Shown here piece after piece: positions 21,401 to 24,400 of a stretch of 64,000 bases of DNA (its first letter is position 1; every line of letters begins with the position of its first letter). This stretch comes from Zootoca vivipara (lineage: Eukaryota): contig NC_083290.1 of the NCBI RefSeq assembly GCF_963506605.1, forward strand, positions 26,164,001-26,228,000. Reading direction: 5' to 3'. The position numbers are program-made.

Positions 21401-24400
21401 TTTTCCTTGTACTGATTTCTGTGTTTTTCTGTGTTGTTGCTCTTCCCAATGCCCTCAGTGTACAGAAAGTGCAATAGTGCCTTTCCAAACCCTGCCCTCA
21501 TTAGAATCCGTGTCTGCTGTTAGCAATTCAGAGTGCAATCCTCGTTGTCCTTCAGAACAGCAACTACCAAGCTGGCTTTTGGAGGTGAGAGCTTATTACT
21601 AAATGGGAAGAAACAGGGCTCCTCACCCCTGATAAAGAAAAACTTCCTTCTCCTCATGGAATTACTGTTTTTTCTGTTGCATGAATTTTACTAGATTGCG
21701 AAAAGACAGCATGGAATTATATTTACTAAACAAAGAGACAGAGAAGGGAATTGTCCAGTAGTTTGTTTTCCCCCCAGGAAGAGCTTTTAAGCTCAAACCT
21801 GTACTCACTTCTCAACAACTTTAACTTCAGTTTAATTGAACCAGTTCTTCCTTTTCAGACAGGCTTCTTGGCACTTGGCAGAAATGTGGTTGTGGTGGCA
21901 AGAGGGAGCAAAGAATACCCTGGTTCAGGGGGGTCACCTCAGGAAAGACTTAAGGGCTCTGGTGGGCTGCAATCCTACATACTATTGGGCTGTTTTAATA
22001 CCGTAAACCCCAGTGGGATTTAGTTATCCAAAGCGGGTGCAGGGTTTCAGCCTCAGTCTTGTAGCATTAAGGTTGAAGTATATAGGCACCTCTTCACTAT
22101 CTAAACTACAGTTCCCTTGAGTCTTTGGGGGTAAGCAGCAATATATTGCTTAAATCGTATGAAAGTTTGTCATGTAGATATGCTCCACATTTACCATCCC
22201 CTCATAAGGATGAGGAGCATTGGGGAGATACAAAATGGGTCTGAAATAAAATGAATCATTCATGGAATGATGGGGGCAATTGTATTCCCTAACTGGGTGC
22301 CTCTCAGTATTTTGGACTACAGCTTTTGTGGCTAATGGGAGTTGTAGTCAAAAACATCAAGTTGGGCAAGGCTGTATTTGAGACTAAAAAGTAGGGAGAA
22401 GTTATTGGTTTTTCTCCTCAACATATCTATGCCTGATTTTTACACAAACTCTAGAGATGTTCTGCTTCCTTTTGAAATTCCTCTTTTGAGTTCATATCCT
22501 TACAGCATGTCCCATGCAAGCTATGTATAAAATGCTCTATATTTTGTATAGAAATTCTGAAGTCTGCAATCATTACTATTACAAGGAGGTTCCTTCAGTA
22601 GCACCTTAAAGACCAACTAAGTTTTTATTTTGGTATGAGCTTTCGTGTGCATGCACACTTCTTCAGATACAGTGAAATGGAAGTTTCCAGGCACTTATGT
22701 AGAGAAGGGGTGGGGAGGGGTGGGGATGGGGAGGGGGGATCACTCAGAAGGGTGGTGGAAATGGGTGATTGACTGACTGATAGCTGTTGATGACCGCAAA
22801 CGACTGCAAATGGTTTTGCATGAAAAAGCAAGGGTTGAGATGGCTGAAGATCGCTTATCATGTATAATGAGATAAGAACCCGATATCTCTGTTCAAACCA
22901 GGTCCCTCCATGGTTTTGAGCTTGGTGATAAGTTGCAATTCAGCAACTTCTCTTTCCAGTCTATTTCTGAAATTCTTTTGTAGTAAGACAGCTACTTTGA
23001 GATCTTGTATAGAATGTCCTGGGAGATTGAAGTGTTCTCCTACTGGTTTTTCTGTCTTCTGGTTCCTGATGTCAGATTTATGTCCATTTATCCTTTGGCG
23101 TAGGGTTTGGCCTGTTTGTCCAATATAGAGAGCTGAAGGGCACTGTTGGCATTTGATGGCATACACAATGTTAGAGGATGAGCAATTAAATAGTCCTGAG
23201 ATGGTATGTTGGATGTTGTTGGGGCCAGTAATGGTGTTGTCTGGGTGTATGTGGCAGCAAAGTTGGCATCTGGGTTTATTGCAGGCTCTGGTACCAGTGT
23301 CCATGTTAAGTCTGGTGGTTGTATTATTGTGGGTGAGGAGTTGTTTAAGATTGGGTGGCTGTCTGTAGGCAATGAAAGGTCTTCCTCCCAGAGCTTGAGA
23401 AAGGGAGCGGTCATTGTCCAGGAGAGGCTGTAGATCTCTGATGATGCGTTGTACTGTTTTAGCTTGGGAGCTGTATGTGATGACTAGTGGTGTTCTGTTA
23501 TTTTCTTTTTTGGGTCTGTCTTGCAGCAGGTTCTCTCTAGGTATCCGTCTGGCTCTGTTGATCTGTTGTTTAACTTCATCAGGTGGATATTTTAGTTCTA
23601 AAAAGGTTTGCTGTAGATCTCTTAGGTGAGATTCTCTGTCTGTAGAGTTGGAACAGATGCGGTTGTAACGTAAGGCCTGGCTGTATACGATGGATTGTTT
23701 GGTATGTTTGGGATGGTAGCTAGAAGCATGTAGATATGTTTGTCGGTCAGTTGGTTTTCTGTATAAGGTGGTGTCTATACGTCCAGAGAAGTTGCTGAAT
23801 TGCAACTTATCACCAAGCTCAAAACCATGGAGGGACCTGGTTTGAACAGAGATATCGGGTTCTTATCTCATTATACATGATAAGCGATCTTCAGCCATCT
23901 CAACCCTTGCTTTTTCATGCAAAACCATTTGCAGTCGTTTGCGGTCATCAACAGCTATCAGTCAGTCAATCACCCATTTCCACCACCCTTCTGAGTGATC
24001 CCCCCTCCCCATCCCCACCCCTCCCCACCCCTTCTCTACATAAGTGCCTGGAAACTTCCATTTCACTGTATCTGAAGAAGTGTGCATGCACACGAAAGCT
24101 CATACCAAAATAAAAACTTAGTTGGTCTTTAAGGTGCTACTGAAGGAATTTTTTTATTTTACTTCGATCCAGACCAACACGGCTACCTACCTGTAACTAT
24201 TACAAGGAGGGTTACTCTCACAACCTCCTCCCTGCACATTGCTGGCCAAGAGAGAACTGAAGCTTGTTTGTGTGCTGCAACAGTTAAACATACTTTGGAT
24301 TTGTGGACCGAGACTTTAAAGAAAGAAAAAAAATAACCTCCAATAAAGAGAGTTCGCAAACCCAGGTCTGATTTGCTTTTTTTGGGGGGGGGGGTATGGT

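What the first reader, a model, noticed from the sequence alone, without database searches (positions are those of the whole stretch)
22575..24210. Fold-back Penelope insertion creating a 364-bp inverted repeat inside the putative DIXDC1 3' UTR
Seen: arms 22590-22953 and 23785-24148 are reverse complements (no mismatch noticed by eye) around an 831-bp spacer. The whole unit is bounded by one 15-bp TSD, so it is a single event. It lies ~3.5 kb after the DIXDC1 stop, in UTR-like AU-rich sequence, 130 nt before an AATAAA (24342). Inference: if the distal poly(A) site is used, the mRNA of this Wnt-pathway scaffold would carry a long dsRNA stem. That could be a substrate for ADAR editing, Staufen binding, nuclear retention, or Dicer-derived siRNAs against the whole PLE family. 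In DNA it is a potential hairpin/fragile site.
Basis: partly seen in the sequence, partly recalled or inferred. Interest (0 to 1): 0.75.

Follow-up and report, generated by a model that had tools for sequence, protein, structure and literature searches.

The report
Head-to-head Penelope retrotransposon insertion
A young Penelope-like retrotransposon sits just downstream of the DIXDC1 coding region as two truncated copies pointing away from each other, which is the usual footprint of how these elements insert; whether it is ever part of the gene's messenger RNA is untested.

Summary
Arms 22590-22953 and 23785-24148 are 364 nt and 100% complementary, with 831 nt between them. One exact 15-bp target-site duplication (22575-22589, 24196-24210) bounds the unit.

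It is a Penelope-like element (PLE). The minus-strand ORF carries a GIY-YIG endonuclease. A second copy in the window adds reverse transcriptase and has its own 15-bp duplication.

The unit is two 5'-truncated copies joined head-to-head with a 1-nt overlap:
- a 1196-nt minus-strand copy that lacks the 47-nt terminal "tail";
- a 411-nt plus-strand copy that carries the tail.

Each copy holds sequence the other lacks, so neither derives from the other. This fits published PLE biology: head-to-head inverted copies, a tail on one end only, extension of both DNA strands, and two reverse-transcription start sites (PMC3846280, PMC8557442, PMC11167929). It is not a snap-back product.

The DIXDC1 (Dixin) identity, the stop at 19133-19135 and the AATAAA at 24342 hold. 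Nothing here shows that the site is transcribed as 3' UTR. The dsRNA consequences therefore stay hypothetical.

Verdict: a real, ordinary instance of a known kind. Modest interest.

The parts
22575..22589 (.). Left copy of the 15-bp target-site duplication (ACTATTACAAGGAGG)
   Evidence: family D4, 100% identical to 24196-24210
22590..23785 (-). 5'-truncated PLE copy on the minus strand, 1196 nt. Its 3' end abuts the left duplication and lacks the 47-nt tail. Its 5' end is at the inversion junction.
   Evidence: 98.9% over 1196 nt to copy 2 (35527-36712). alignment; tblastn to aa 489-796 of the 797-aa protein P0008.
22590..22953 (-). Left arm of the inverted repeat: the last 96 nt of the ORF including the stop (22858-22953) plus 268 nt of 3' non-coding (pseudo-LTR) sequence
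22858..23785 (-). Open remnant of the PLE ORF (C-terminal part, stop at 22858-22860). The stop-to-stop frame runs on to 23862 through the junction. The GIY-YIG match covers aa 232-273 of that frame, about 23044-23169.
   Evidence: 334-aa open frame; PF01541 GIY-YIG, E 2.2e-05, 25.1 bits, cut-off 22.6
22638..22666 (-). Minimal hammerhead-ribozyme motif of the left arm (core CUGAAGA, helix II, GAAAGCU)
   Evidence: pattern match. Features read by hand against PMC4209133. No Rfam match.
23785..23785 (.). Head-to-head inversion junction. One nucleotide can be assigned to either copy. No palindrome and no filler.
   Evidence: alignment with copy 2; sequence
23785..24195 (+). Second 5'-truncated PLE copy on the plus strand, 411 nt, ending with the complete 3' terminus including the tail
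   Evidence: 97.1% over 411 nt to 35880-35480.; aa 767-796 of P0008.
23785..24148 (+). Right arm of the inverted repeat
   Evidence: pair I1
24068..24105 (+). Minimal hammerhead motif in the sense of DIXDC1: helix I GUAU/AUAC, core CUGAAGA, one extra A, helix II GUGUGC..GCACAC, GAA, palindromic AGCU, C17 at 24101 (predicted cleavage after it)
   Evidence: the MFE draws helices I and II, but z-score is 0.16. Cleavage not tested.
24109..24114 (+). AATAAA hexamer brought in by the right arm, followed by a U-rich stretch
24149..24195 (+). 47-nt 'tail': the terminal extension present on the plus-strand copy and on copy 2 (35480-35526) but absent from the minus-strand copy
   Evidence: Concept from PMC8557442, PMC3846280 and PMC11167929.
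24196..24210 (.). Right copy of the 15-bp target-site duplication
   Evidence: family D4
19046..19135 (+). Coding end of the last DIXDC1 (Dixin) exon with stop at 19133-19135. The exon's 5' edge is approximate.
   Evidence: ORF. DIX domain, profile positions 55-77 of 77; best PDB match Dixin 3pz7_A, E 1.2e-13, to its last residue.
24342..24347 (+). AATAAA 132 nt after the insertion, followed by a U/G-rich stretch. Candidate distal DIXDC1 poly(A) signal; its use is not shown.

Best explanation
This is one recent insertion of an endonuclease-bearing Penelope-like retrotransposon, made by target-primed reverse transcription from both nicked DNA strands.

Shown:
- The unit is bounded by one 15-bp duplication.
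- It consists of two 5'-truncated copies with their 5' ends joined (1-nt overlap) and their 3' ends facing the two duplications.
- The plus-strand copy (411 nt) begins at the element's outermost 3' terminus.
- The minus-strand copy (1196 nt) begins 47 nt further in.
- The two copies are identical over the 364 nt they share.

Inferred:
- The endonuclease made staggered nicks 15 bp apart.
- The bottom-strand 3' end primed cDNA synthesis at the outer start site and the top-strand 3' end primed at the inner start site.
- The templates were two units of one concatemeric transcript, or two RNAs held by a dimeric protein.
- The two cDNAs were then joined by a template jump or by end joining.

The inverted repeat is therefore simply the stretch that both cDNAs copied.

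As for effect, the unit lies 3.4 kb after the DIXDC1 stop and about 1 kb before the CpG island of the next gene, a DLAT-like gene. If DIXDC1 transcripts read through it they would carry a perfect 364-bp stem, an extra AATAAA and a sense-strand hammerhead motif. None of that is shown.
For: Geometry:
- arms 364 nt at 100%, plus a 15-bp duplication.
- the alignment with copy 2 shows the tail only on the plus-strand copy, 831 nt unique to the minus-strand copy, and a 1-nt overlap at 23785.
- both arms share all three differences from copy 2 within the arm (2 substitutions and one 10-nt indel).

Family:
- GIY-YIG in the unit; RVT_1 (29.2 bits, just under the 29.6 cut-off) plus GIY-YIG in one ORF of copy 2.
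- 192 proteins at E<=1e-10 among 4477 candidates. The 9 best are sea-turtle proteins at 67-69% identity. Most listed hits carry PF00078, with or without PF01541.
- 5 hammerhead-type motif matches against 0 expected (0 of 100 shuffles reached 5).
- copy 2 is a plain 5'-truncated insertion with its own 15-bp duplication and the same terminus, which fixes the canonical 3' end.

Literature:
- PMC3846280 (passages): head-to-head is the most frequent inverted arrangement, with the tail optionally on one inverted pseudo-LTR, all inside one duplication.
- PMC11167929 (main text read): the anole PLE protein cleaves and extends both strands in vitro. Reverse transcription starts at two adjacent internal sites, the tail is the sequence between them, and the start sites do not differ between strands.
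Against: - No reads were available, so the assembly cannot be checked.
- The tail here is 47 nt, against the 30-40 nt (31 nt in rotifers) given in the papers.
- The inner start site (directly after ...GGAA) is seen only once in this window. The two short copies (31693-31786, 45008-45103) end some 13-17 nt further on in the U-rich tract, so a family-typical inner site is not established here.
- Copying the same 364 nt twice needs two templates or strand displacement. That is assumed, not shown.
- Arkhipova et al. 2013 favoured a different route (self-priming on an antisense template) for inverted copies with a palindrome at the junction.
- Rfam finds no hammerhead, and the motif region does not fold better than shuffles (z 0.16).
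Confidence: 0.8

Rival explanations
1. Functional hairpin reading: DIXDC1 mRNAs use the 24342 signal and so carry the 364-bp perfect stem. The stem is then edited by ADAR, bound by Staufen, retained in the nucleus, sensed as dsRNA, or diced into small RNAs that target the PLE family.
For: - Arms pair at 363 of 364 positions in the predicted fold; the arm duplex alone is -742 kcal/mol.
- The unit is 3440 nt after the stop and 132 nt before an AATAAA with a U/G-rich downstream stretch.
- The next gene's CpG island starts near 25200 (GC 0.73), so a DIXDC1 terminator must lie before it.
- Without the insertion, the 24342 signal would be about 3.6 kb after the stop.
- The mammalian precedent for such fates of 3' UTR inverted repeats is reviewed in PMC11263572.
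- The arms cover the 3' end shared by all copies, including the short ones at 86-97% identity.
Against: - No transcript evidence of any kind.
- Two upstream AATAAA hexamers (20534, 22245) could end all transcripts before the insertion.
- The insertion brings its own AATAAA at 24109 and an ATTAAA at 23185.
- The precedents are mammalian Alu pairs with mismatches. The behaviour of a perfect 364-bp stem in this unidentified non-mammalian species is unknown.
- A strongly immunogenic or destabilising stem in a housekeeping-type mRNA would more likely be selected against, or be polymorphic.
Confidence: 0.15
2. Assembly artefact: the inverted arm was created by a chimeric or palindromic read or by a mis-join of two PLE copies.
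For: - PLE tandem/inverted structures are said to cause assembly problems (PMC8557442; PMC3846280).
- The arms are suspiciously perfect: 0 mismatches in 364.
Against: - An artefact would not produce an exact 15-bp duplication of unique flanking sequence at both outer edges.
- That duplication has the same length as the one around copy 2.
- An artefact would also not produce a tail on one side only that matches the canonical terminus.
- Palindromic-read artefacts have no 831-nt unique spacer.
- The structure is the one described for real PLE insertions.
Confidence: 0.05
3. The inverted unit existed before. Either a donor locus with this structure was transcribed and retrotransposed as a whole, or a plain insertion was later rearranged by an inverted duplication (replication template switch).
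For: - PLE pseudo-LTRs are reported to carry promoter motifs readable in both directions (PMC3846280), so composite transcripts are conceivable.
- Perfect arm identity would also follow from a very recent duplication.
Against: - A later duplication cannot explain that each copy has sequence the other lacks: the 47-nt tail against 831 nt of ORF.
- Whole-unit retrotransposition would need the 5' truncation point to fall exactly at the inner edge of the tail.
- No second copy of the junction exists in the window. Only 64 kb could be searched.
Confidence: 0.07
4. Two independent PLE insertions that happen to lie side by side in opposite orientation.
For: PLEs are reported to insert into or next to their own copies: the in-vitro target was the element's own ORF-pLTR junction (PMC11167929), and a secondary insertion is described in PMC3846280.
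Against: - Only one pair of duplications exists, at the outer edges. A second event at the edge of the first would leave a third copy of a 15-mer or its own pair, and none is present.
- The arms show 0 differences and share all 3 variants against copy 2.
Confidence: 0.03

Closest known systems
Head-to-head inverted pseudo-LTR insertions of Penelope-like elements (Arkhipova et al. 2013, PMC3846280; Craig et al. 2021, PMC8557442)
   Same: - An inverted 5'-truncated copy adjoins a copy in the other orientation.
- The 5' ends are together and the 3' ends face outward.
- One target-site duplication surrounds the whole unit.
- An optional tail sits on one end only.
- The repeat carries a hammerhead motif.
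- Encodes RT plus a C-terminal GIY-YIG.
   Different: - No full-length or tandem copy lies between the arms. The unit is the minimal case of two truncated copies.
- The duplication is 15 bp (8-10 bp in the rotifer examples).
- The tail is 47 nt (31 nt, or 30-40 nt, in the papers).
- There is no palindrome at the junction.
In-vitro insertion by the Anolis carolinensis PLE 'PAc' (Frangieh et al. 2024, PMC11167929)
   Same: The genomic unit shows what that assay predicts: both strands extended, and two start sites whose distance equals the tail. One start site is used on each strand here. The tail is A/C-rich (CCAGACCAACACGGCUACCUACC), as is the start region described for PAc.
   Different: - This is a different family. 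No sequence comparison with PAc was possible, because figures and supplements were not available.
- In PAc the ORF starts inside the hammerhead. The frames through the motif here close within about 12 codons (read).
- In-vivo joining of the two cDNAs is not addressed by that paper.
Twin priming of LINE-1 (Ostertag and Kazazian 2001, seen only as a cited reference; data in PMC12016303)
   Same: Two cDNAs of opposite orientation are primed from the two strands of one staggered break, inside one duplication of about 15 bp, and joined with little or no microhomology.
   Different: - In L1 the inverted cDNA starts far inside the RNA, and the two cDNAs overlap by a median of 12 bp (quartiles 4-17). 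L1 inversions therefore do not make long inverted repeats.
- Here both start within 47 nt of the 3' end and overlap by 364 nt.
- There is no poly(A) tail.
- The enzyme is a GIY-YIG nuclease, not an APE-type one.
Inverted Alu pairs (IRAlus) in human 3' UTRs (review PMC11263572)
   Same: Two inverted retroelement copies within about 1 kb, close to the end of a gene, able to form a long intramolecular duplex.
   Different: - IRAlus arise from two separate insertions and are mismatched. This pair is one event and perfect.
- Transcription, editing, retention and sensing are documented for IRAlus. None of them is shown here.

Membership tests
Endonuclease-bearing Penelope-like element (PLE) | Single ORF with reverse transcriptase followed by a C-terminal GIY-YIG endonuclease | tested here: met
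   Copy 2's ORF (419 aa) has RVT_1 at E 9.1e-07 (29.2 bits, 0.4 below the curated cut-off) and GIY-YIG at E 3.3e-05 (above the cut-off) in one frame. The unit itself keeps only the GIY-YIG part (E 2.2e-05) because it is 5'-truncated; it aligns to aa 489-796 of a 797-aa protein.
Endonuclease-bearing Penelope-like element (PLE) | RT belongs to the PLE clade (sister to telomerase RT) | not tested
   No tree was built. Only the C-terminal part of the RT is present in the window. One search gives 192 relatives at E<=1e-10 with RVT_1 +/- GIY-YIG, and none is named as a PLE by its source.
Endonuclease-bearing Penelope-like element (PLE) | [quoted passage not shown] | tested here: met
   Read: CUGAAGA, A, then G..C closing a 6-bp helix II, GAA, AGCU, C. 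Five copies in the window against 0 expected. Rfam has no match and self-cleavage is untested.
Endonuclease-bearing Penelope-like element (PLE) | 5' truncation, target-site duplication, and an optional 30-40-nt tail at one end | tested here: met
   15-bp duplications surround both long copies. The tail is present on the plus-strand copy and on copy 2 and absent from the minus-strand copy. At 47 nt it is somewhat longer than published.
Endonuclease-bearing Penelope-like element (PLE) | Tandem or inverted pseudo-LTR arrangement | tested here: met
   Head-to-head inverted arrangement. No tandem copy.
LINE-1-type twin priming | Inverted cDNA primed deep inside the RNA, so that the two cDNAs abut or overlap by about a dozen bases; poly(A) at the 3' end | tested here: not met
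   The overlap is 364 nt and both starts lie within 47 nt of the terminus. There is no poly(A). L1 figures come from PMC12016303.
Snap-back (fold-back) cDNA or self-primed inverted copy | Arms meet at a palindromic junction, and the repeated part is the end where synthesis turned back | tested here: not met
   The arms are separated by 831 nt of unique ORF sequence. The junction at 23785 has a 1-nt overlap and no palindrome. The repeated part is the 3' end, facing outward.
3' UTR inverted-repeat dsRNA element (IRAlu-like) | Both arms lie in one mature transcript | not testable with these tools
   No transcript data. Hexamers at 20534, 22245, 24109 and 24342 leave all options open.
3' UTR inverted-repeat dsRNA element (IRAlu-like) | Arms able to form a long duplex | tested here: met
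   363 of 364 arm positions pair with their mirror partner; MFE -970.9 kcal/mol for 1559 nt.
DIXDC1 (Dixin) as the upstream gene | C-terminal DIX domain closest to Dixin rather than Dishevelled or Axin | tested here: met
   Exons were searched singly. Dixin 5y3b_A at E 2e-20, against DVL-2 at 6e-06 and Axin-1 at 2e-03. Dixin 3pz7_A at E 1.2e-13, matched to the chain's end.

The most novel reading that the evidence does not exclude
The insertion is part of the mature DIXDC1 mRNA. Its perfect 364-bp stem, made from the 3' end shared by every copy of an active PLE family, then acts as a host-encoded hairpin. It would be a source of small RNAs or an editing or sensing target, and would tie expression of a Wnt-pathway scaffold gene to control of the family. 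The locus would also be an in-vivo record that PLE integration uses both DNA strands and both start sites in one event.
Probability: 0.07. Interest if true: 0.6.

Novelty: new member of a known kind. Interest (0 to 1): 0.3.

Why it matters
PLE integration is the least understood retrotransposition pathway. The first in-vitro system (2024) reported extension of both strands and two start sites. This locus is a clean, undecayed genomic example that shows both features in one event. It has 0 differences between the arms, an intact duplication, a 1-nt junction, and a tail on one side only. It could serve as a worked example or as a search template for a genome-wide census. Taken alone it adds an instance, not a principle. 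For the host gene it matters only if the site is transcribed. In that case a perfect 364-bp duplex, an extra poly(A) signal and a ribozyme motif would sit just before the end of the DIXDC1 message, and about 1 kb ahead of the CpG island taken as the DLAT-like gene's promoter. Because the family is young, the insertion may be polymorphic, which would allow a natural allele comparison.

Tried and rejected
1. Rfam, E-value mode, 21500-25500: 0 matches. The hammerhead call therefore rests on hand reading against published criteria, not on a model.
2. PDB sequence search with the 419-aa PLE ORF: 0 matches at E<=0.1.
3. Fold of the hammerhead-plus-tail region 24056-24195: helices I and II are drawn, but the energy is no better than shuffles (z 0.16; 112 of 200 shuffles fold as well). 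It gives no support for a stem-loop in the tail.
4. Microhomology at the tailless end. The last 7 nt of the left duplication (AAGGAGG) could pair with the U7 run of the RNA by A-U and G.U pairs. Post hoc, this is roughly 1 in 128 for a purine run. It is not seen at the other ends. It also runs against the report that PLE priming needs no homology (PMC11167929). Kept only as a remark.
5. Two independent insertions, a later inverted duplication, whole-unit retrotransposition and an assembly artefact: see rivals.
6. Search for further coding PLE copies in the window: only the two long ones (tblastn with P0008 and P0015). The frequency of inverted units in this genome therefore could not be estimated.
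7. Species identification was not pursued beyond noting that the best named relatives are sea-turtle proteins at only 67-69% identity.
8. Pfam over + strand frames 25001-47000: 114 of 122 stop-to-stop frames of 45 aa or more were scanned. The 8 lying inside PLE copy 2 were left out. Result: 9 frames with lipoyl, E3-binding or 2-oxoacid_dh matches (one lipoyl match below the cut-off) and one weak DUF746 match below the cut-off.
9. One search failed on the format of a search term and was repeated.
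Full report
**Observation**

The region was read directly and scanned for repeats.
- Arms 22590-22953 and 23785-24148 are 364 nt and 100% complementary, with 831 nt between them.
- ACTATTACAAGGAGG occurs at 22575-22589 and again at 24196-24210.
- A blastn of the unit against the whole window gives the same picture.

One point was missed: the unit is asymmetric. The left arm touches the left duplication. The right arm is followed by 47 further nucleotides (24149-24195) before the right duplication.

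**What the sequence is**

- The minus strand carries an open frame of 334 codons (22858-23862) with a GIY-YIG endonuclease match (E 2.2e-05, above the curated cut-off).
- A second copy of the same element lies at 35480-37262 on the minus strand, 98.9% identical over 1196 nt. Its 419-codon frame has RVT_1 (E 9.1e-07, 29.2 bits, just under the 29.6 cut-off) followed by GIY-YIG.
- That copy is a plain 5'-truncated insertion with its own exact 15-bp duplication, at 35465-35479 and 37263-37277.
- A search of the large protein set with the 419-aa frame (longer proteins only) found 192 proteins at E<=1e-10 among 4477 candidates. The nine best are sea-turtle proteins at 67-69% identity. Most of the 120 listed carry PF00078 with or without PF01541, and they come from echinoderms, ticks, molluscs and unnamed sources.
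- Against a 797-aa turtle protein (P0008), copy 2 covers aa 291-796, the minus-strand copy of the unit covers aa 489-796, and the plus-strand arm covers aa 767-796.
- No solved structure matches.

RT followed by a C-terminal GIY-YIG in one ORF is the definition of canonical endonuclease-bearing Penelope-like elements (PMC8557442, passages).

**Hammerhead motif**

- The 3' non-coding part carries CUGAAGA-A-GUGUGCAUGCACAC-GAA-AGCU-C, flanked by GUAU and AUAC.
- A pattern built on it matches 5 times in the window against 0 expected (0 of 100 shuffles). The matches are both arms, copy 2, and two short (~95-nt) copies at 31693-31786 and 45008-45103 that have the canonical CUGAUGA.
- Rfam finds nothing at E<=1. 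The region folds no better than shuffles. Cleavage is untested.
- The same paper notes such motifs in turtles and snakes and none in mammals. PMC8557442 notes that PLEs are absent from mammals and birds. I therefore do not take this window for human.

**Anatomy of the unit**

Aligning both halves with copy 2 in the sense orientation shows two 5'-truncated copies.
- The minus-strand copy runs from 23785 (5') to 22590 (3'), 1196 nt. It stops at ...CUGAAGGAA, 47 nt short of the canonical terminus.
- The plus-strand copy runs from 23785 (5') to 24195 (3'), 411 nt. It ends at the canonical terminus ...CCUACCUGUA, exactly as copy 2 does.
- The 5' ends meet at 23785 with one nucleotide assignable to either copy. 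There is no palindrome and no filler.

The arrangement is head-to-head with the 3' ends facing the duplications. The 364-nt inverted repeat is the stretch present in both copies: 96 nt of ORF end plus 268 nt of non-coding sequence.

Each copy holds sequence the other lacks (831 nt of ORF against the 47-nt tail), so neither can be a duplicate of the other. Both arms share all three differences from copy 2 within the arm: two substitutions and a 10-nt indel.

**Mechanism**

This is the arrangement the PLE literature describes.
- Arkhipova et al. 2013 (PMC3846280, passages) report inserts completed by an adjacent inverted pseudo-LTR inside one duplication. [quoted passage not shown]
- Craig et al. 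[quoted passage not shown]
- Frangieh et al. 2024 (PMC11167929, main text read) showed that the purified anole PLE protein cleaves and extends both top and bottom strands. They also showed that reverse transcription starts at two adjacent internal sites in an A/C-rich region, that the tail is the sequence between those sites, that start sites do not differ between strands, and that the protein is predicted to be a dimer acting on multi-copy transcripts.

The locus fits that model point by point:
- nicks staggered by 15 bp;
- the bottom strand priming at the outer site;
- the top strand priming at the inner site;
- two cDNAs that both cover the last 364 nt before the tail;
- a join with 1-nt overlap.

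The priming and joining steps are inferred. The geometry is shown.

The locus differs from L1 twin priming, where the two cDNAs overlap by a median of 12 bp (PMC12016303, passages). It also differs from the self-priming route, which predicts a palindrome at the junction. 'Fold-back' describes the shape of the product, not how it was made.

**Age**

There are no differences in 364 aligned positions between the arms. The minus-strand copy differs from copy 2 by 3 substitutions and one indel in 1196 nt. The frames are open for 334 and 419 codons.

With zero differences, the 95% upper bound on arm divergence is about 3/364, or 0.8%. At recalled reptile-like rates of 0.5-2 x 10^-9 per site per year, this means at most a few million years. 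That figure is my own arithmetic on assumed rates, and gene conversion between arms could also keep them identical. The family looks recently active, so the insertion may be polymorphic.

**Setting**

Exons were searched one at a time. I made no joined (spliced) model of either gene.
- The frames at 17040-17180 and 19025-19135 (+) match the DIX domain.
- Their best solved relatives are Dixin chains: E 2e-20 and 1.2e-13, against 6e-06 for DVL-2 and 2e-03 for Axin-1. The stop is at 19133-19135.
- Downstream, GC rises to 0.73 at 25200-25999.
- Plus-strand frames from 28280 to 38459 match two lipoyl domains, an E3-binding domain and five pieces of the 2-oxoacid dehydrogenase catalytic domain (114 of 122 frames scanned). 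This is a DLAT-like gene.
- That DIXDC1 and DLAT are neighbours in human is my recollection, not a result.
- PLE copy 2 and the short copy at 31693-31786 lie in introns of that gene.

**The 3' UTR claim and the RNA consequences**

Plus-strand hexamers after the stop are AATAAA at 20534, 22245, 24109 (inside the right arm), 24342 and 24785, and ATTAAA at 23185 (inside the element).

The 24342 signal has a U/G-rich stretch after it. Without the insertion it would lie about 3.6 kb after the stop and roughly 0.9 kb before the CpG island. It is therefore a reasonable terminal site, but nothing available here shows which site is used.

If the region is transcribed:
- the arms pair at 363 of 364 positions (MFE -970.9 kcal/mol; arms alone -742.0);
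- the right arm would put a sense-strand hammerhead motif (24068-24105) and an AATAAA (24109) into the transcript, although inside the duplex the ribozyme fold would be masked;
- the two outward-facing terminal repeats may have promoter activity, as reported for other PLEs. That would give antisense transcription into the DIXDC1 3' region and sense transcription toward the DLAT-like gene's presumed promoter (the CpG island).

All of this is inference. As for DNA fragility, my recollection is that long spacers stabilise inverted repeats, so an 831-bp spacer argues for modest risk. This was not tested.

**What stayed unchecked**

- No eukaryotic genome or read collection was available. So there is no empty site, no census of the family and no check of the assembly.
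Those of PMC11167929 and PMC4209133 may hold the sequences needed for a direct comparison.
- The species was not identified.

**Verdict**

The element, the single event and the neighbouring gene are confirmed. The structure is the ordinary head-to-head product of PLE integration and a neat genomic match to the 2024 in-vitro findings. The proposed RNA-level effects on DIXDC1 are possible but without evidence.

Noticed in passing
35465-37277: Second copy of the same PLE family (35480-37262, minus strand). It is a plain 5'-truncated insertion with the 47-nt tail and an exact 15-bp duplication ATGTTTTGGAGTGGT. It lies in an intron of the DLAT-like gene between catalytic-domain exons. The ORF is open for 419 codons, then shifts frame upstream.
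   Followed up: yes
31693-31786 (-) and 45008-45103 (+): Two ~95-nt insertions consisting of little more than the hammerhead motif (with canonical CUGAUGA) and the sequence up to the U-rich tract. They are 86-97% identical to the arms, are flanked by short imperfect direct repeats, and lack the tail. They could be extreme 5' truncations or members of a non-autonomous, retrozyme-like family derived from PLE terminal repeats (compare bioRxiv 10.64898/2026.07.22.740005, abstract read).
   Followed up: partly
22583-22589 with the U7 run seen at 24149-24155: The last 7 nt of the left duplication (AAGGAGG) could pair with the U7 run that follows ...GGAA in the element RNA, using A-U and G.U pairs only, exactly where the tailless copy starts. 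This is post hoc, roughly 1 in 128 for a purine run, and is not seen at the other junctions.
   Followed up: partly
24109-24114 and 24068-24105 (+): The right arm places an AATAAA followed by a U-rich stretch, and a sense-strand hammerhead motif, 233 nt and about 240-270 nt upstream of the 24342 signal. Either could alter 3'-end formation of a read-through DIXDC1 transcript.
   Followed up: no
25200-25999 and 28280-38459 (+): A CpG-rich island (GC 0.71-0.73) is followed by exons for two lipoyl domains, an E3-binding domain and a 2-oxoacid dehydrogenase catalytic domain. This is a DLAT-like gene on the same strand as DIXDC1, starting about 1 kb after the 24342 signal.
   Followed up: partly
241-366, 6580-6721, 33136-33278, 37845-37965; also 4244-4334 with 8734-8824: An unrelated short interspersed repeat family (about 110-140 nt, 78-82% identical, in both orientations) and a separate 91-nt inverted pair at 94.5% identity turned up in the self-comparison of the window.
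   Followed up: no
24374-24392: A run of T followed by about eleven G directly after the 24342 AATAAA. Such homopolymers are error-prone in assemblies and could be part of the downstream element of the poly(A) site.
   Followed up: no
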